From: Escherichia coli
Lineage (GTDB): Bacteria; Pseudomonadota; Gammaproteobacteria; Enterobacterales; Enterobacteriaceae
DNA length: 64,000 bases
NCBI RefSeq assembly: GCF_045037415.1
Contig: NZ_CP173440.1
Strand: one strand, 5' to 3'
The position numbers were made by a program, and so were the translations under genes. Below, piece by piece: positions 1 through 61,737 of this stretch. Position 1 is the first letter of the stretch, and the number at the start of each line of letters is the position of its first letter. The notes under the pieces are model-generated. The model did no database searches, had not been told where the DNA came from, and saw only the letters and a program-made list of their open reading frames with translations.

Positions 1-407
1 GGGAGATAACAGAGAAGTGTGACGTATCCCCGGACAATGCGGTCAGCTGGCCGAGTTCCAGAACCAGATGGAAATCAACATTGTTTTTGGATACCTCAGT
101 CGCCGGAATAATGCATACAGAAATTGCAGAGCTCAGGGACGTAACGGGAATTTTAATGTTTTCCTGTTTAGCGCCCGTGAAGAAAAGCACTTTGTCAAAG
201 TCATGAAGGGAAACCCCCTCAAGGCTTCCGATATTTTCATAATCAATCAGGGCAATTCTGGTTTTGGAACTGAGCATTATTCTCTCCCGAAAAAACAGGT
301 TGGACTAAATATCAACTTAATCACCACCAGCAGCCCAAAAGTAACTTTTGGGCCTATGTACACTCCCGCCACCCGGTAAAAGTGACTTTTTACGGCGCAA
401 ATACTGA

Positions 408-827
408 CTAAACGTGCTGGTTCTGATTAAACATGGCTACGGCCATTGGTCTGGAACCACTGGTATCATCTACCTCTACGGCAATATCTATCCAATGGTC
501 GGGGTCGGATACCCAGTCAATCAGCTCTTTAAGGGACAGGCTGTATCTGAACTTAATTTTCTTAATGCTGTCATTGCCAAACCAGTTAATTCGGTTCACA
601 TGCTGTTTGATGTAGTACACATCCCATGAGCCATGGCCCAAAAAGTCCTTACCCCACTGCCGCTTATGCTCTCGCCAGTCACAGGGCAGAACGTCTGCAC
701 GAAAAAGACTGTCTGTTATCTGATAGATATCTGAAAACCCGACCTCGCTATCGGGGATCGTTTCCAGGTACAGGTATCCGGCAACCGGATGCTTCGTGCT
801 AATGACCACGTGTTTCGAGCTCATCAT
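408..827 (-). CDS. hypothetical protein
   Basis: 139-aa ORF with no recognisable motif; weak ribosome-binding site. Confidence 0.3.
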   Translation of the reverse strand: MMSSKHVVISTKHPVAGYLYLETIPDSEVGFSDIYQITDSLFRADVLPCDWREHKRQWGKDFLGHGSWDVYYIKQHVNRINWFGNDSIKKIKFRYSLSLKELIDWVSDPDHWIDIAVEVDDTSGSRPMAVAMFNQNQHV

Positions 828-1372
828 AGTTCCGTTTTCCGTATGAACAGTCCTAACGCCAATAATCCAGTTATATCAAAATTTGTTTCAGAAATTCCTG
901 AATAACAGGACAAAAAAAATCCAGAGAGGAAAGAAATGCGGGACAAAAAGGGTCTTTCAGGATCGCTTATTTTGATATCGTCTATTAACTATTCCATCCC
1001 GAGATGTTCAAATGACGCCAGTATGCAGCGCGGGAAATGTGAAAACAGAATGTGCAGCAAGAAGAAAACGACATAGAAGGAGAGGGAGGCTCATTCACAT
1101 CACTGATGACAGCTATATTAACAGCAGAATGCTTGATCAGATATCCGACGACGTGATGTATCAGGAAGCATTCAGAAAAGGAACTTAACGACGAACGTAA
1201 AAAAACACACTCCACGGCCTTAAAGTACCTTTAAGTCGGGAAAAACCAAAATTTTCTATGTTAGATTATTATCTGTTTTAGTAGGCCAGAACTAAACCAG
1301 TGCCCTGTCTGGTAAAAGGGAGTGGCGGTAGCTTCTGAAAATTCAGTTTAACTTCCAGATTATTCAAGCGGG

Positions 1373-1732
1373 ATGTATATGCATGCAACTCATCTGACGA
1401 AAAAATTTAATGTTTTGGCGGTCGTCTATTTCACAATCATTGCTTGTGGTCAGATTGTTCTGTTCCCTCATTCTCAGCCCATTTTCCTGTTCCTCGTGAC
1501 TATGGCTATGGCGGTTCGCTTATTTGCCCTGCGGCCTCAATATAAAAATTTACGATTTCTGGTTTTGTCCATCATCTCACACCACCTTGTTTTTACCATT
1601 CTTTCACTCATCCAACTCTATATCGATGCCAGGTATAGCAGGGCAAGTTTCATTGAGTATCAAATGGTTTATGCGCCTTTGCTCATCGGGATGGGATATG
1701 TGTATTTCAACGTCTGGAGAGCGCGTACCTAA
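1373..1732 (+). CDS. hypothetical membrane protein
   Basis: 119-aa ORF with several hydrophobic segments. Confidence 0.3.
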   Translation: MYMHATHLTKKFNVLAVVYFTIIACGQIVLFPHSQPIFLFLVTMAMAVRLFALRPQYKNLRFLVLSIISHHLVFTILSLIQLYIDARYSRASFIEYQMVYAPLLIGMGYVYFNVWRART

Positions 1733-2112
1733 CATCCTTCCGACTTCTTTGGTTAAAAGAGCCTGCATGAATTGTTCTACCCACAAAGCCATACCGCTGA
1801 CCTTTTCTTGTGAAGTGGCAACAGGTACAGGTGTCCCCGTTAAGGTGTCAGACTGTTGTACGTTACCGGGTTAATAACGAGTATCGGGAATTGACCAGCG
1901 ATACTCATTAGATAGGATTAAACATGTTGATTAACAATAAAGTTAAAAAATAAATAAAGGCAAAAAGAAAGAAGGCGTCCAAAATATTTTGGACGTGCCA
2001 TTACATCGAAAAGAAATATCCTCAACCTATTTTTATAGCCCTTTTTTGGTTACCTTGGCTTCCTTTAATAGCATATATAAAGCTATTCCCGCAATTTTCT
2101 CCTTTAATTGCA

Positions 2113-2430
2113 TTGGCGATATACGGACTTGGGATTATAACAATACTTTCTGTATGGTTCTATTTGGATTTTCCTAAAAGCTGGATTGATTCACTGGACC
2201 GTCAAATTTTGAAGTACCGGTCAGATATGTCATTCATTGATGAGCTCAAAGATGTACACACTGATGATTTTATTGAACATGGCAAGGAAATACTAACGAT
2301 TAGCGACATTCAATATTGGGCTAATGACCAAGAATGGCAACTGGATAAACTACATAGAAAATATAGTCGCGTCAAAATCAAAAAAGAGGTGGTTGTTAAC
2401 CTTAAAAGTTTTGAAAGTAAAAAGGACTGA
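2113..2430 (+). CDS. hypothetical protein
   Basis: 105-aa ORF, hydrophobic N-terminus. Confidence 0.3.
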   Translation: MAIYGLGIITILSVWFYLDFPKSWIDSLDRQILKYRSDMSFIDELKDVHTDDFIEHGKEILTISDIQYWANDQEWQLDKLHRKYSRVKIKKEVVVNLKSFESKKD

Positions 2431-2465
2431 TATCCATTCATTAATTTTCAATTATCAAATTGCAG

Positions 2466-2476
2466 AAAGTTACTTT
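2466..2476. promoter_or_regulatory. AAAGTTACTTT palindromic operator-like site 12 bp upstream of the HNH gene start
   Basis: copy of the recurrent palindrome, inside cagAAAGTTACTTTctg, just upstream of the GGGGGA ribosome-binding site. Confidence 0.5.
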
Positions 2477-59361: not shown

Positions 59362-59365
59362 TTTC

Positions 59366-60397
59366 ATGAGAACTTTAAACTTCAACGGTAAAATTTCGAC
59401 TCTGGAACCACTGACTGTAACAGTAAAAAATGCGGTCTCAACTTCCGGCCATCGCTTGCCTCGTAACGGTGGATTCAATGCAGCCCCGTACTTTCCAGGT
59501 ACCAGCATTCGGGGAACTCTTCGTCATGCTGCGCATAAGGTCATTGTCGATCGTGTGGGCCTTAATGCAGACGGAAAATCACCTTTCGACCTGGCAGAAC
59601 ATTTCATGCTGGCCCAGGGGGTGGATATCAATGGTGAAGCCGAAACCTTCGCGCCAGGTGAAATCAATGCTGGTGCTGAACTACGTAGCAAAAACCCGTT
59701 AATCAGCTTGTTTGGTCGTTGGGGATTAAGCGGCAAAGTTGGTATAGGGAATGCTATCCCGGATGGTGATAACCAGTGGGGGATGTTTGGTGGGGGTGCC
59801 CGCTCAATTATGTTTCAGCGTGACGAAAGTCTGATGGAGTTTCTTGAGACAGACCAGGTTGATCGTCTGGAACGCCTGCTCGAGGAACAGGCTGAGGCAA
59901 GTGTGGATATCTCTCAGATCAAAACAGAGCAGGATGCACTCAAAAAGGCGATGAAGTCGGCTGATAAAGACACCAAAGCTGAGCTTCAAATCAAAGTACG
60001 GGAGCTCGATGAAAAAATTCAGGCCCGCAAAGATCAGAAGCAGGAATCTCGCGAGTCAATTCGCCGCCCGATTGACCCGTATGAAGCGTTTATCACCGGC
60101 GCAGAACTCAGCCATCGCATGAGTATTAAAAATGCGACTGATGAGGAAGCAGGGCTTTTCATTTCTGCATTAATCCGCTTTGCAGCCGAACCACGTTTTG
60201 GCGGTCATGCGAATCATAACTGCGGTCTGGTGGAGGCTCACTGGACAGTTACGACCTGGAAGCCGGGTGAACTGGTACCAGTTACACTTGGAGAAATCGT
60301 CATCACACCGAATGGTGTTGAGATTACCGGGGACGAGTTGTTTGCTATGGTAAAGGCATTCAATGAAAATCAATCTTTTGATTTCACTGCCCGCTAA
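59366..60397 (+). CDS. csf2: Cas7-like backbone protein Csf2
   Basis: 343 aa; GTSIRGTLRHAAH resembles the Cas7 glycine-rich RNA-binding loop. Confidence 0.65.
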   Translation: MRTLNFNGKISTLEPLTVTVKNAVSTSGHRLPRNGGFNAAPYFPGTSIRGTLRHAAHKVIVDRVGLNADGKSPFDLAEHFMLAQGVDINGEAETFAPGEINAGAELRSKNPLISLFGRWGLSGKVGIGNAIPDGDNQWGMFGGGARSIMFQRDESLMEFLETDQVDRLERLLEEQAEASVDISQIKTEQDALKKAMKSADKDTKAELQIKVRELDEKIQARKDQKQESRESIRRPIDPYEAFITGAELSHRMSIKNATDEEAGLFISALIRFAAEPRFGGHANHNCGLVEAHWTVTTWKPGELVPVTLGEIVITPNGVEITGDELFAMVKAFNENQSFDFTAR

Positions 60398-60462
60398 CTC
60401 CAAAAGCTGGTGGATTTTAGTGGCGCTATTTAATATTTTATAATCAACCGGTTATTTTTAGA

Positions 60463-61405
60463 GTATTCCCCCCGTGTGCGGGGGTTATCGGCAACCTCAA
60501 TTCCTAATGGCTGTCTAAGGAAAGTATTCCCCCCGTGTGCGGGGGTTATCGGCAGGGTTTGCCCTTTTGCACCGCGCAGCGGTCGTATTCCCCCCGAGTG
60601 CGGGGGTTATCGGAGCAACGTTTCCGGATTATATGGCTGGAACGTGTATTCCCCCCGTGTGCGGGGGTTATCGGTGGTGCTCTCAACCGTCACCCGCTGG
60701 CTGGAAGTATTCCCCCCGTGTGCGGGGGTTATCGGTGGTGTTGTCCACGGTCACCCGCTGGCTGGAAGTATTCCCCCCGCATGCGGGGGTTATCGGGCAC
60801 CCTCACGGATACCTTTTGCACAGTGTTAGTATTCCCCCCGCATGCGGGGGTTATCGCCTTAGAGAAGCAAAAACCCCACCGAGGCAGGGGTATTCCCCCC
60901 GTGTGCGGGGGTTATCGGTTACTTTTTGGCAGTTGGTAAAACACTTTTGCGTATTCCCCCCGCATGCGGGGGTTATCGGCGAAAACGGCAACCTTCATAA
61001 AAACGTCTTTTGTATTCCCCCCGTGTGCGGGGGTTATCGGCCGAGATTGAGTAAAGCAAAGTAACGGCGGTGGTATTCCCCCCGCATGCGGGGGTTATCG
61101 GCAGCGTCTGAACGGACGAAACATCCCTGTTGAGTATTCCCCCGTCTGCGGGGGTTATCGGCGAGCGCTCTCCTGGTAAATCGGTAGCTCGGAGTATTCC
61201 CCCCGCATGCGGGGGTTATCGGGCTGGATTTCCGTCAGTTGGTCAGCTGCTGCTGTATTCCCCCCGTGAGCGGGGGTTATCGGTTCCGGACTCCTGTTTC
61301 CGGCAGTGGATTAAAGTATTCCCCCCGCATGCGGGGGTTAACGGCACTACCAGATCCGAATGGACACCCGTAATGAGTATTCCCCCCGCACGCGGGGGTA
61401 TCGAC
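60463..61405 (+). CRISPR. CRISPR array: 16 repeats of 29 bp, 15 spacers of 32 bp
   Basis: repeat GTATTCCCCCCGTGTGCGGGGGTTATCGG at 61-bp periodicity; AT-rich leader at 60400-60462; degenerate terminal repeat at 61377. Confidence 0.95.
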
Positions 61406-61474
61406 ATAAAAACCGCAATGGTGGGGCTTTTGTTATGTGCCCCTACAAGCAGATGGGACTTTTTACAATCAAGG

Positions 61475-61485
61475 AAAGTTACTTT
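61475..61485. promoter_or_regulatory. AAAGTTACTTT copy 70 bp after the last CRISPR repeat
   Basis: ggAAAGTTACTTTcttcagg. Confidence 0.45.
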
Positions 61486-61737
61486 CTTCAGGATAACCCA
61501 CATTCTGTCAAATCTTGCAGGTTGCAATCAGCAAAGGCCTTACGTCGATAAATTCATGCCTTGAGCTGGTAAGGAAGTATGACGTTATAACTCTGCATTT
61601 CTGGTTGATTAAGGTAGGGCGGCATTCCTGCTTTAAAAACAATCAATAATTTTGAACGGTAGTCGTCTTGATCCCAACTGCTACCTGATGGACTAGGCAC
61701 CTGCAAAGATCCAATTTATACTGGTTATATATACAGT

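What the first reader, a model, noticed from the sequence alone, without database searches (positions are those of the whole stretch)
378..61490. Recurrent palindrome AAAGTWACTTT (about 27 copies): candidate plasmid-wide operator regulon
The 11-mer AAAGT[T/A/G]ACTTT, often extended to CAGAAAGTTACTTTCTG or GCAAAAGTAACTTTTGC, has cores starting at 379, 2466, 11365, 12041, 12760 (variant), 14795, 16667, 31127, 31339, 31393, 31429, 31581, 31875, 37265, 38666, 39777, 43469, 45234, 47479, 48285, 49578, 51306, 51476, 51587, 52161, 57074 and 61475. Chance expectation for this degenerate 11-mer in 64 kb (both strands) is roughly 0.1 copies. Almost all copies are intergenic. Several lie 8-25 bp upstream of a start codon (2488, 38643, 47469, 48274); others lie 40-110 bp upstream. 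A palindrome of this size suits a dimeric DNA-binding protein, so this looks like a dispersed operator set co-regulating many plasmid operons, comparable in logic to KorB operators on IncP plasmids. I do not recognise it as any known chromosomal regulator site.
Basis: seen in the sequence. Interest (0 to 1): 0.85.

Follow-up and report, generated by a model that had tools for sequence, protein, structure and literature searches.

The report
IncHI plasmid-wide ParB-like binding palindrome
A 13-base palindrome is scattered dozens of times over the conserved backbone of IncHI-type resistance plasmids and never in their acquired DNA; it is most likely the docking site of an uncharacterised plasmid-encoded ParB/KorB-like protein, which would point to an undescribed plasmid-wide control layer in clinically important plasmids.

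Summary
The window, a Klebsiella IncHI1B/pNDM-MAR-type plasmid, holds 28 exact AAAGTNACTTT copies against 0.08 expected. The full consensus is RAAAGTNACTTTY, flanks are unrelated, and 23 of 28 copies are intergenic.

A complete relative carries 83 copies. All lie in the 174-kb backbone and none in 109 kb of accessory DNA. Plasmid-wide, 36% lie inside genes.

The same motif is the top palindrome in R27 (IncHI1, 46 copies) and in IncHI2, IncHI5-like and uncultured relatives. Eleven of 11 alignable sites are conserved against an IncHI5-like plasmid although flanks diverge.

Copies cluster upstream of ORF 29775-31016, around the repHI1B iterons, at the presumed oriT and before the main tra operon.

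That ORF is a ParB/KorB/Noc-fold protein by PHROG, PDB profile and AF2/Foldseek. It has no adjacent ParA, and the plasmid's real parAB has its own tandem-repeat centromere.

Best reading: these are binding or loading sites of this orphan ParB-like protein, working like KorB-OB on RK2 or ParB-parS on IncC. Binding and the effect on transcription are inferred. A paralogue or another protein could be the binder.

I found no description of the motif in the literature I could search. I rate it a new variant of a known kind.

The parts
338..348 (.). motif copy (AAAAGTAACTTTT), intergenic, 60 bp upstream of the PIN-domain gene start (277, - strand); paired with 379
379..389 (.). motif copy (centre G), 18 bp after the stop of 408-827(-) and 101 bp upstream of the PIN-domain gene start
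2466..2476 (.). motif copy, 11 bp upstream of the HNH-endonuclease gene start 2488(+), directly 5' of its Shine-Dalgarno sequence
8650..8660 (.). motif copy inside the C5 DNA methyltransferase CDS (7372-8787 +)
11365..11375 (.). motif copy overlapping the last codons and stop of 11369-11647(-)
12041..12051 (.). motif copy overlapping the last codons and stop of 12045-12254(-)
14795..14805 (.). motif copy, 42 bp upstream of start 14752(-) and 13 bp after the stop of 14819-15037(-)
16677..16687 (.). motif copy overlapping the last codons of 16294-16683(+), 126 bp upstream of start 16814(+)
29775..31016 (-). 413-aa orphan ParB/KorB-like protein (paralogue A), the best candidate binder. It has a ParB/Srx-type N-domain (GFNTR, RQGHCRHRA), an HTH (res ~165-195), a disordered linker (260-332) and a helical C-domain.
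31109..31126 (.). second inverted repeat, TTTCAC-N6-GTGAAA, between copy 31127 and the presumed promoter of the ParB-like gene. It is conserved in the IncHI5-like plasmid and present in IncHI1. Function unknown.
31127..31137 (.). motif copy 1 of the six-copy cluster, 110 bp upstream of the ParB-like start codon (31016)
31339..31349 (.). cluster copy 2
31393..31403 (.). cluster copy 3
31429..31439 (.). cluster copy 4
31581..31591 (.). cluster copy 5
31875..31885 (.). cluster copy 6, 35 bp upstream of the 54-aa gene start (31839, -) and 14 bp after the stop of the DUF957 gene
37265..37275 (.). motif copy, 103 bp upstream of start 37161(-) and about 12 bp upstream of a -35-like hexamer
38666..38676 (.). 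motif copy, 109 bp upstream of PGAP start 38556(-)
39777..39787 (.). motif copy, 20 bp after the stop of 39808-40194(-)
43469..43479 (.). motif copy, 8 bp after the stop of 43488-43802(-) and 101 bp upstream of start 43367(-)
45234..45244 (.). motif copy, 107 bp upstream of the DUF4942 gene start (45126, -); conserved in the IncHI5-like plasmid
47479..47489 (.). motif copy, 15 bp after the stop of 47505-47984(-); conserved in the IncHI5-like plasmid with the centre flipped from A to T
48285..48295 (.). motif copy (centre G), 10 bp upstream of start 48274(-) and adjacent to the Shine-Dalgarno sequence; conserved in the IncHI5-like plasmid
49579..49589 (.). motif copy in the long non-coding stretch beside the repHI1B origin region; conserved in the IncHI5-like plasmid
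51306..51316 (.). motif copy on the far side of the repHI1B iterons
51477..51487 (.). motif copy on the far side of the repHI1B iterons
51594..51604 (.). motif copy on the far side of the repHI1B iterons
51773..52047 (.). four iteron-like direct repeats (AACGTACGACGGTTAATGTTT), the presumed repHI1B origin, bracketed by motif copies 51594 and 52161
52161..52171 (.). motif copy between the iterons and the repB stop (62 bp after the stop at 52234)
57074..57084 (.). motif copy inside the type IV-A dinG helicase CDS
61475..61485 (.). motif copy about 60 bp beyond the last repeat of the type IV CRISPR array

Best explanation
RAAAGTNACTTTY is the specific recognition or loading site of a plasmid-encoded orphan ParB/KorB-like protein. 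The most likely binder is the 413-aa product of 29775-31016.

Proposed mechanism, all inferred:
- The dimer reads the 13-bp palindrome with its ParB-type HTH.
- As in other ParB-fold proteins, it probably uses its nucleotide-binding N-domain (variant Box II, GHCRxRA) to close on and spread from the site.
- The six copies upstream of its own gene give autoregulation.
- The other copies lie mostly at the promoter-distal edge of intergenic regions, some next to ribosome-binding sites or just inside genes. They also cluster at the repHI1B iterons, the presumed oriT and the main tra promoter region. Through them one protein could modulate, most likely repress, establishment, replication and transfer genes across the whole IncHI backbone while ignoring acquired DNA.

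Shown here: the motif's enrichment, backbone restriction, conservation and clustering, and the ParB fold of the candidate protein.

Inferred: who binds, nucleotide dependence, spreading, and the sign of regulation.
For: Enrichment and sharpness:
- 28 copies against 0.08 expected in the window.
- 83 against 0.25 expected on the 174-kb backbone of NZ_CP141906.1, and 0 in 109 kb of accessory DNA.
- 46 against about 0.3 expected in R27, with none in Tn10 or the tcu island.

Not a repeat element, and not RNA:
- Flanks are unrelated.
- RNA hairpins are weak, 0 to -6.3 kcal/mol, with z-scores from -1.5 to +0.9.
- A and T are used about equally at the centre whatever the gene strand.

Selection:
- 11 of 11 alignable orthologous sites are kept against an IncHI5-like plasmid, while +/-40-bp flanks are 62-95% identical. 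From those numbers I calculate the chance as about 0.04 per site.
- 48 of 83 copies are intergenic although only 25% of the backbone is unannotated. I calculate z at about 7.

Link to the protein:
- The motif is the top palindrome in every IncHI-type locus reached through homologues only 26-38% identical: L008, L012/13, L016, L017, L018, L027, L028, the IncHI1 locus L021 and the IncHI2 locus L022.
- One to six copies lie 13-260 bp upstream of the paralogue-A gene in every plasmid type examined: pNDM-MAR, IncHI5-like, IncHI1, IncHI2, L008 and L012.
- The motif is absent from loci of the sister 'RDG' clade and from IncC.

Protein fold:
- PHROG 1033 'ParB-like partition protein', E = 1e-23.
- Family profile against PDB ParB/Spo0J/Noc, E = 6e-14 to 1e-10, and against KorB, E = 1e-4, with GHCRxRA aligned on GERRxRA.
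- 25 of 40 family members hit Pfam HTH_ParB.
- AF2 model with pLDDT >= 95 over residues 20-255.
- Top Foldseek hits are KorB-KorA 8QA9, ParB and Noc, probability 1.0.

Independence from partition: the bona fide parAB has its own array of at least 13 repeats of about 65 bp and no motif copy in its promoter.

Precedents: 14 dispersed parS sites bound by IncC ParB (PMC10954446), and the KorB-OB network on RK2 (PMC11790492).
Against: - No binding data exist.
- Co-occurrence of motif and protein is confounded by shared plasmid ancestry, because all motif-positive loci are IncHI-like backbones.
- IncHI plasmids carry two or three paralogues of the family. Paralogue B also has a copy 112 bp upstream in the pNDM-MAR type.
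- The presumed recognition helix is only partly conserved among paralogue-A orthologues ([ST]xxH[VI]R), while the motif is invariant.
- The query protein itself fails the Pfam and NCBIfam thresholds.
- 36% of sites are intragenic and some lie between convergent genes. No fixed promoter geometry or companion (KorA-like) site was found. A repressor role is therefore not demonstrated.
- The glutamate of ParB Box III appears not to be conserved, so nucleotide hydrolysis may differ or be absent.
Confidence: 0.5

Rival explanations
1. The motif is a protein-binding site, but the binder is not the 29775-31016 product. It could be the paralogous ParB-like protein B (NZ_CP141906 152061-153239; R27 45191-46348, in a Dam / ParB-like / DUF4942 module), both paralogues together, an unrelated backbone HTH/RHH protein, or a host factor.
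For: - Two or three paralogues exist per plasmid.
- Paralogue B sits beside the 8-copy hub at the tra promoter with a copy 112 bp upstream.
- Short contigs holding only paralogue B also carry copies 13-125 bp upstream of it (L017, L018, L028).
- NCBIfam parB_part hits paralogue B weakly, E = 7e-8.
- From memory only, GT-N-AC cores are also typical of GntR-type operators.
Against: - In R27 no copy lies in the 360 bp upstream of paralogue B, whereas paralogue A has two.
- The paralogue-B recognition helix is far more variable than that of A, although the motif is invariant.
- A host factor would not explain the zero copies in 109 kb of accessory DNA, or why the motif tracks the IncHI backbone across Klebsiella, Salmonella, E. 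coli and uncultured hosts.
Confidence: 0.25
2. The copies are dispersed centromere (parS) sites used for plasmid segregation or positioning. They would serve a ParA encoded elsewhere or host machinery, as in IncC, with regulation only a side effect.
For: - The candidate binder has the ParB fold.
- IncC plasmids, which share the MOBH transfer backbone, have 14 dispersed parS sites that are functional in partition (PMC10954446).
- The sharp, exact palindromes resemble parS.
Against: - There is no ParA next to the gene in any relative.
- The plasmid has a complete parAB with its own tandem-repeat centromere and no motif at the parA promoter. R27 additionally has ParM/ParR.
- Eighty-three sites spread over 174 kb are far more than partition needs.
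- The strong bias to gene boundaries is not expected for centromeres.
Confidence: 0.1
3. The sites load a ParB-like clamp that acts as plasmid-wide chromatin rather than as a repressor. Possible roles are VirB-like counter-silencing of H-NS/Hha, which govern IncHI transfer, Noc-like tethering, or marking the backbone as 'self'.
For: - Density is one site per 2-4 kb over the whole backbone, with near-Poisson spacing (CV 0.8-1.07).
- Sites occur inside genes and between convergent genes.
- IncHI plasmids encode their own H-NS and Hha.
- Precedents for repurposed ParB proteins are VirB, Noc, BisD and HerB (PMC10245682, PMC12409273, PMC13370423).
Against: - The 2.3-fold intergenic enrichment and the clusters at the gene's own promoter, oriV, oriT and the tra promoter fit classical regulation equally well.
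- Nothing here tests spreading, a membrane-binding helix or interplay with H-NS.
Confidence: 0.12
4. The motif is not a protein site. It would be a miniature repeat element, an RNA hairpin or terminator, or a by-product of restriction-modification or codon bias.
For: - Many copies lie 8-20 bp after stop codons; 19 of 83 centres fall within -1 to 35 bp of a stop, against 3.4 expected.
- T-runs sometimes follow the palindrome.
- The plasmid encodes several methyltransferases.
Against: - Flanks are not conserved.
- Hairpins are no more stable than shuffled controls.
- There is no strand preference.
- Intragenic copies use all three reading frames.
- Recognition sites of restriction-modification systems are avoided, not enriched, and do not specify 10-12 bases (established knowledge).
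Confidence: 0.03

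Closest known systems
KorB-OB global regulatory network of IncP plasmid RK2/RP4
   Same: - A perfect 13-bp palindrome is repeated over the plasmid backbone, at promoters, at a distance from promoters and inside genes, including the replication and transfer control regions.
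- The binder is a ParB-fold protein with an HTH and a disordered linker, and it autoregulates.
- KorB is the top structural match of the candidate protein.
- KorB acts as a CTP-dependent sliding clamp that silences at long range (PMC11790492).
- The figures of 12 OB sites and a 13-bp unit are quoted in PMC10954446.
   Different: - KorB is the ParB of the incC-korB partition operon. The candidate here is an orphan, and a separate parAB with its own centromere exists.
- There are 46-83 sites per plasmid against 12.
- No KorA-like partner site was detected.
- The sequences are unrelated (TTTAGCSGCTAAA against RAAAGTNACTTTY).
- The Pfam KorB domain matches only 1 of 40 family members.
- By sequence profile the protein is closer to chromosomal ParB and Noc than to KorB.
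Dispersed parS sites of IncA/IncC plasmids bound by ParB of parAB-053 (Kiss et al., NAR 2024, PMC10954446)
   Same: - Both are large MOBH/MPF_F conjugative plasmids.
- About 14 inverted repeats are scattered through the conserved backbone, mostly intergenic and often next to transfer-gene promoters.
- I re-found 7 copies in a 40-kb IncC stretch.
   Different: - The IncC sites are bound, by EMSA, by the partition ParB (ParB + KorB domains), and one site overlaps the parA promoter.
- The IncHI motif is absent from the parA promoter.
- The sequences differ (core TTTCACATGTGAAA, 22 bp in full).
- IncC also has a 31%-identical orphan homologue of the protein discussed here, with unknown target.
Noc-NBS of Bacillus subtilis
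   Same: An orphan ParB paralogue recognises a parS-like palindrome present in about 70 dispersed copies. Noc structures are among the best sequence and fold matches.
   Different: Noc is chromosomal, tethers DNA to the membrane and acts in division-site control. No membrane-targeting helix or comparable role was examined here.
Orphan ParB-like regulators on mobile elements: VirB (Shigella pINV), BisD (ICEclc), HerB/YfjB (F leading region)
   Same: These are ParB-fold, CTP-binding proteins without a ParA partner, repurposed for gene regulation. They are encoded among establishment and leading-region-type genes (PMC10245682, PMC12409273, PMC13370423).
   Different: - VirB and BisD act at a few sites and activate or counter-silence.
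- HerB (652 aa, extra D3/D4 domains) binds the host chromosome without a consensus motif.
- None has tens of exact palindromes spread over its own replicon.

Membership tests
ParB/Srx-HTH (ParB-CTPase fold) proteins, for ORF 29775-31016 | N-terminal ParB/Srx domain with Box I and the Box II GxxRxxA nucleotide-binding motifs | tested here: met
   GFNTR and RQGHCRHRA are present. N50, R52, G101 and R104 are invariant in 40 family members. The family profile aligns GHCRxRA on GERRxRA of Spo0J/ParB, E = 6e-14. Fold matches to ParB, KorB and Noc have probability 1.0.
ParB/Srx-HTH (ParB-CTPase fold) proteins, for ORF 29775-31016 | ParB-type helix-turn-helix DNA-binding domain | tested here: met
   PHROG 1033 covers residues 36-245. 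Twenty-five of 40 family members hit Pfam HTH_ParB. The model is confident over residues 150-255. The query alone is below the Pfam threshold.
ParB/Srx-HTH (ParB-CTPase fold) proteins, for ORF 29775-31016 | CTP binding or hydrolysis and site-dependent clamp closure and sliding | not testable with these tools
   Only motif conservation is available. The Box III glutamate appears replaced, so hydrolysis is uncertain.
ParB/Srx-HTH (ParB-CTPase fold) proteins, for ORF 29775-31016 | C-terminal dimerisation domain after a flexible linker | tested here: inconclusive
   AF2 predicts a disordered stretch at 260-332 and helices at 335-412 with pLDDT 63-89. The oligomeric state was not tested.
KorB-type global operator network (IncP) | Identical short palindrome repeated across the backbone, including replication and transfer control regions and the regulator's own promoter | tested here: met
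KorB-type global operator network (IncP) | The binder is the ParB of the plasmid's incC(parA)-korB partition operon | tested here: not met
   No ParA is adjacent in any relative. A separate parAB with its own repeat centromere exists.
KorB-type global operator network (IncP) | A co-repressor (KorA) with its own operator next to a subset of the sites | tested here: not met
   No enriched companion k-mer was found within +/-60 bp of the 83 sites. This does not exclude a partner without a DNA site.
KorB-type global operator network (IncP) | Demonstrated repression of the flanking promoters | not testable with these tools
   No expression or binding data exist. The consensus promoter scan was uninformative, 35 hits against 35.4 expected.
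IncA/C dispersed parS | Site sequence AAAC-TTTCACATGTGAAA-GTTT and a copy overlapping the parA promoter | tested here: not met
   The IncC motif is absent from the IncHI plasmids apart from one unrelated TTTCAC-N6-GTGAAA repeat. No IncHI motif copy lies within 700 bp of parAB.
Dispersed repeat element (REP/MITE-like) | Conserved sequence extending beyond the core; copies alignable over tens of bases | tested here: not met
   Base composition is flat beyond +/-8, and the flanks are unrelated.
Intrinsic terminator or structured RNA element | A stable G+C-rich hairpin (followed by a U-tract), dependent on strand | tested here: not met
   MFE is 0 to -6.3 kcal/mol and no better than shuffles. Central A and T are used equally on either strand.

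The most novel reading that the evidence does not exclude
IncHI plasmids carry a 'backbone code'. Forty-six to 83 exact loading sites, one per 2-4 kb and strictly absent from acquired DNA, would load an orphan NTP-dependent ParB-like clamp. The clamp would coat the whole conserved backbone as plasmid-specific chromatin, independent of partition. It would set the expression state of establishment, replication and transfer genes, possibly in interplay with the plasmid's own H-NS/Hha thermoregulation. It would also distinguish backbone from cargo. This would be the densest ParB-type site network known on any replicon.
Probability: 0.3. Interest if true: 0.85.

Novelty: new variant of a known kind. 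Interest (0 to 1): 0.66.

Why it matters
IncHI plasmids include R27/pHCM1 in typhoid, IncHI2 carriers of mcr-1, and the pNDM-MAR/IncHI1B and IncHI5 plasmids of Klebsiella. They are major vehicles of multidrug resistance and of hybrid virulence-resistance plasmids. Most of their backbone genes are 'hypothetical', and their known regulation is limited to H-NS/Hha and TrhR/TrhY/HtdA.

A single conserved cis-element touches the replication origin, the presumed oriT, the tra promoter hub and dozens of small establishment-type genes. Together with a concrete candidate protein, it gives a directly testable handle on how these plasmids coordinate cost, maintenance and transfer.

It would also extend the KorB paradigm, a ParB-fold clamp acting as a global regulator, to an orphan ParB that coexists with a canonical partition system.

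There are practical uses as well:
- The motif is a simple sequence marker that separates IncHI backbone from cargo DNA.
- An array of the motif could titrate the protein, which suggests an incompatibility or plasmid-curing approach, as SGI1 does to IncC with its parS mimics.

Tried and rejected
1. Pfam and NCBIfam on the 413-aa ORF alone gave nothing significant. Homology appeared only with PHROGs, a family profile and structure prediction.
2. The word-indexed homologue search returned only relatives at 79% identity or above. The exhaustive representative search was needed to reach distant ones.
3. The consensus promoter and terminator scan of 30.9-49.7 kb found 35 promoter-like hits against 35.4 expected. 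It gave no usable geometry. Aligning regions by hand from site to start codon showed no fixed distance from site to the -35 hexamer.
4. The RNA-hairpin or terminator idea is rejected.
5. A search for a second, KorA-like motif near the sites found nothing.
6. A test for regular spacing of the sites gave near-Poisson values, CV 1.07 and 0.80, so there is no evidence of even spacing.
It returned 120 unrelated loci (Clostridia MAG repeats, Mucilaginibacter and others), none encoding a homologue. It said nothing about taxonomic range.
8. I looked for a covarying, different palindrome near homologues of the sister clade (P0063, P0064, P0067). No clear alternative motif was found, so protein-motif covariation could not be shown.
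9. Literature searches by motif sequence, by IncHI/ParB/KorB terms and by RefSeq protein accessions found no description of this motif or protein. Subscription-only papers are not covered.
10. The partition ParB as the binder is rejected, because parAB has its own array of about 65-bp repeats and no motif copy.

Full report
**1. What the window is**

Megablast places the window on large conjugative Klebsiella pneumoniae plasmids of the IncHI1B/IncFIB(Mar) 'pNDM-MAR' type (MOBH relaxase, MPF_F). Examples are CP031372.2 and NZ_CP141906.1. I transferred the CDS annotation of these near-identical records onto window coordinates and checked every ORF.

Relative to those records the window differs in three ways:
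- It has an IS1 at 4050-4818.
- It has an ISL3-family insertion at 49835-51152.
- It has two inverted IS4321-like IS110 copies (26700-27704 on the minus strand, 53366-54370 on the plus strand). These bound a segment that is inverted compared with other plasmids.

**2. The observation**

AAAGTNACTTT occurs 28 times, against 0.08 expected. Only 10 one-mismatch copies exist, against 3.3 expected.

The next position out is purine/pyrimidine in 96% of half-sites, and the centre is A or T in 86%. The unit is therefore the 13-bp palindrome RAAAGTNACTTTY. Sequence beyond +/-8 is unrelated between copies, so this is not a repeat element.

In the window 23 copies are intergenic, 3 overlap the last codons of a gene and 2 are intragenic.

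**3. The complete plasmid**

I assembled NZ_CP141906.1 (283,567 bp) from six fetched pieces. It has 83 exact copies. All lie in the roughly 174 kb of IncHI1B backbone. None lies in the 109 kb of resistance islands, IS elements and the IncFIB part. Shuffle expectations are 0.25 and 0.1.

Of the 83 copies, 48 are intergenic, 5 sit on a CDS edge and 30 lie inside CDSs. The annotated coding fraction is 75%. From those numbers I calculate z at about 7 for the intergenic excess.

Copies favour gene boundaries:
- 19 centres lie -1 to 35 bp after a stop codon, against 3.4 expected.
- 22 lie within 120 bp upstream of a start, against 11.5 expected, with a mode at about 100-117 bp.
- 7 of the 30 intragenic copies fall in the first 36 nt of a gene, where they encode signal-peptide-like KKLLL or KVTF.
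- Three copies abut a Shine-Dalgarno sequence, in the form AAAGTNACTTT-t/ct-GAGG/GGGG.
- A few lie between convergent genes.

Spacing is close to random, CV 1.07.

The clusters are:
- six copies upstream of ORF 29775-31016;
- five around four iteron-like repeats just downstream of repHI1B;
- eight in and upstream of the genes preceding the traL/E/K/B operon;
- two in the mobI upstream region, which I presume to be oriT by analogy with IncA/C.

**4. Conservation**

Against an IncHI5-like plasmid (NZ_CP095000.1, candidate protein 88% identical), all 11 alignable window sites are retained. The centre base flips in two of them. The +/-40-bp flanks are only 62-95% identical.

The same 11-mer is by far the commonest palindrome in each of the following:
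- the IncHI1 archetype R27, with 46 copies in 180 kb against about 0.3 expected, and none in Tn10 or the tcu island;
- an R27-like plasmid, 14 copies in 41 kb;
- an IncHI2 plasmid, 7 copies in 41 kb;
- seven metagenomic or genomic contigs with IncHI-like gene content.

It is absent from an IncC plasmid and from three more distant elements. Some positions are shared between IncHI1 and the pNDM-MAR type: the mobI/oriT region, the traF-trhH junction, and upstream of the ParB-like gene.

**5. The candidate protein**

ORF 29775-31016 (413 aa) has no significant Pfam or NCBIfam hit on its own. Other evidence places it in the ParB fold:
- It matches PHROG 1033, 'ParB-like partition protein', E = 1e-23.
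- An exhaustive search found 255 representative clusters.
- Their alignment shows invariant N50, R52, G101 and R104 within GFNTR and R(Q/D)GHCRxRA, followed by an HTH.
- The profile hits solved ParB/Spo0J/Noc structures at E = 6e-14 to 1e-10 and KorB at 1e-4. GHCRxRA aligns on ParB Box II, GERRxRA.
- Twenty-five of 40 members hit Pfam HTH_ParB.
- The AF2 model is confident for residues 20-255. It is followed by a disordered linker and a helical C-domain.
- Foldseek ranks KorB (8QA9), ParB and Noc first.

No ParA gene is adjacent in any relative.

The plasmid's canonical parAB lies elsewhere. It has its own centromere-like array of at least 13 repeats of about 65 bp, and no motif copy in its promoter. 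The motif is therefore unlikely to be the partition centromere.

**6. How firmly motif and protein are linked**

For the link:
- Every plasmid type carrying a paralogue-A orthologue has one to six motif copies 13-260 bp upstream of it.
- Motif-positive loci all carry 'RQG'-clade proteins, and 'RDG'-clade loci lack the motif.

Against the link, or limiting it:
- This is a lineage correlation, not independent covariation.
- IncHI plasmids have two or three paralogues. Paralogue B is at NZ_CP141906 152061-153239 and R27 45191-46348. Paralogue C is at R27 40890-41966.

Paralogue A is favoured for two reasons. It alone always has upstream copies; R27 paralogue B has none. Its putative recognition helix keeps [ST]xxH[VI]R, whereas that of B varies.

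I put about 0.5 on paralogue A as the binder and about 0.9 on 'a selected dsDNA protein-binding site'.

**7. Mechanism**

The exactness of the palindrome, its 13-bp size, its dispersal over promoters, distant sites and gene interiors, the cluster at the regulator's own gene, and the copies at oriV, oriT and the tra promoter mirror RK2 KorB-OB (PMC11790492; site number and size as quoted in PMC10954446). They also mirror the 14 dispersed parS sites that IncC ParB binds (PMC10954446). I re-found the IncC palindrome independently.

The most economical model is that an orphan ParB-fold protein binds, and probably loads and spreads from, these sites. It would modulate backbone operons and autoregulate.

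None of the following is shown: repression as opposed to counter-silencing, nucleotide dependence, or spreading.

**8. Alternatives**

- A different binder, 0.25.
- A dispersed centromere, 0.10.
- Chromatin-like, VirB-like or Noc-like roles, 0.12.
- Non-protein explanations, 0.03. These are rejected.

**9. Novelty**

Full-text searches by sequence, topic and protein accession found no description. Older subscription literature is not covered.

The kind of system, a ParB-family protein with dispersed palindromic sites on a plasmid, is known. Four things are new:
- The protein is an orphan and coexists with a canonical partition system.
- The site number is 4-7 times higher than on RK2 or IncC.
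- The motif sequence is new.
- The element is conserved across the IncHI group.

I therefore rate it a new variant of a known kind, with interest about 0.66.

Noticed in passing
window 54947-61413: A type IV-A CRISPR-Cas locus (csf-type genes, cas6, dinG helicase 56786-58660), followed by a CRISPR array of 16 repeats with a 61-bp period (60470 to about 61413). One motif copy lies inside dinG and one about 60 bp beyond the array.
   Followed up: partly
window 26700-27704 (-) and 53366-54370 (+): Two inverted IS4321/IS5075-like IS110-family copies bound a segment of about 25.6 kb (ParB-like gene to repHI1B). That segment is inverted relative to CP031372.2 and NZ_CP141906.1, probably by IS-mediated inversion.
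   Followed up: partly
window 4050-4818 and 49835-51152: An IS1 insertion, and a 1.3-kb ISL3-family insertion (406-aa transposase, NCBIfam E = 6e-99) sitting in the non-coding region beside the repHI1B origin.
   Followed up: partly
window 45253-45280 (+): A near-consensus sigma-70 promoter (CTGACA-16-TATAAT, 11 of 12 matches) lies 9 bp from motif copy 45234. It points along the + strand, antisense to the surrounding minus-strand genes. It may drive an antisense or small RNA. In NZ_CP141906 an IS1 has inserted nearby.
   Followed up: no
window 31109-31126: The inverted repeat TTTCAC-N6-GTGAAA consists of the half-sites of canonical and IncC parS, spaced by 6 bp. It lies between motif copy 31127 and the presumed promoter of the ParB-like gene. 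It is identical in the IncHI5-like plasmid and present, displaced, in IncHI1. It may be a second operator.
   Followed up: partly
L002 (NZ_CP141906.1) 146656-148228, outside the window: An array of about 1.6 kb with at least 13 direct repeats of about 65 bp (core GACTGCGAACAA) lies upstream of the canonical parA-parB operon. It is presumably the real partition centromere of this plasmid type.
   Followed up: partly
L023 (IncC plasmid NZ_MZ606383.1): The outer arms of the IncC parS, ACTTTCACATGTGAAAGT, are ACTTT...AAAGT. These are the two half-sites of the IncHI motif in swapped order. This could be chance, or a trace of related recognition modules with different dimer geometry.
   Followed up: no
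L005 12061-13239 (NZ_CP141906.1 152061-153239); R27 45191-46348 and 40890-41966: IncHI plasmids carry two or three paralogues of the orphan ParB-like family. In R27 and several metagenomic contigs, paralogue B sits in a conserved module of Dam methyltransferase, ParB-like gene and DUF4942.
   Followed up: partly
window 7372-10079 and 19278-23971: There is a C5 methyltransferase with a convergent type II restriction endonuclease. Separately, a site-specific DNA methyltransferase is followed by an unannotated 1126-aa ORF with no NCBIfam hit.
   Followed up: no
window 62101-63588 (+): A group II intron reverse transcriptase/maturase (ltrA-like, according to the annotation of CP031372.2) lies at the G+C-rich right end of the window.
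   Followed up: no
L111 and L114 (genome-contig scan): Two unrelated loci from the motif-pair scan hold 8 and 9 copies of AAAGTNACTTT within 14 kb and 3.8 kb. They have no ParB-like homologue and are probably local tandem or dispersed repeats in other taxa.
   Followed up: no
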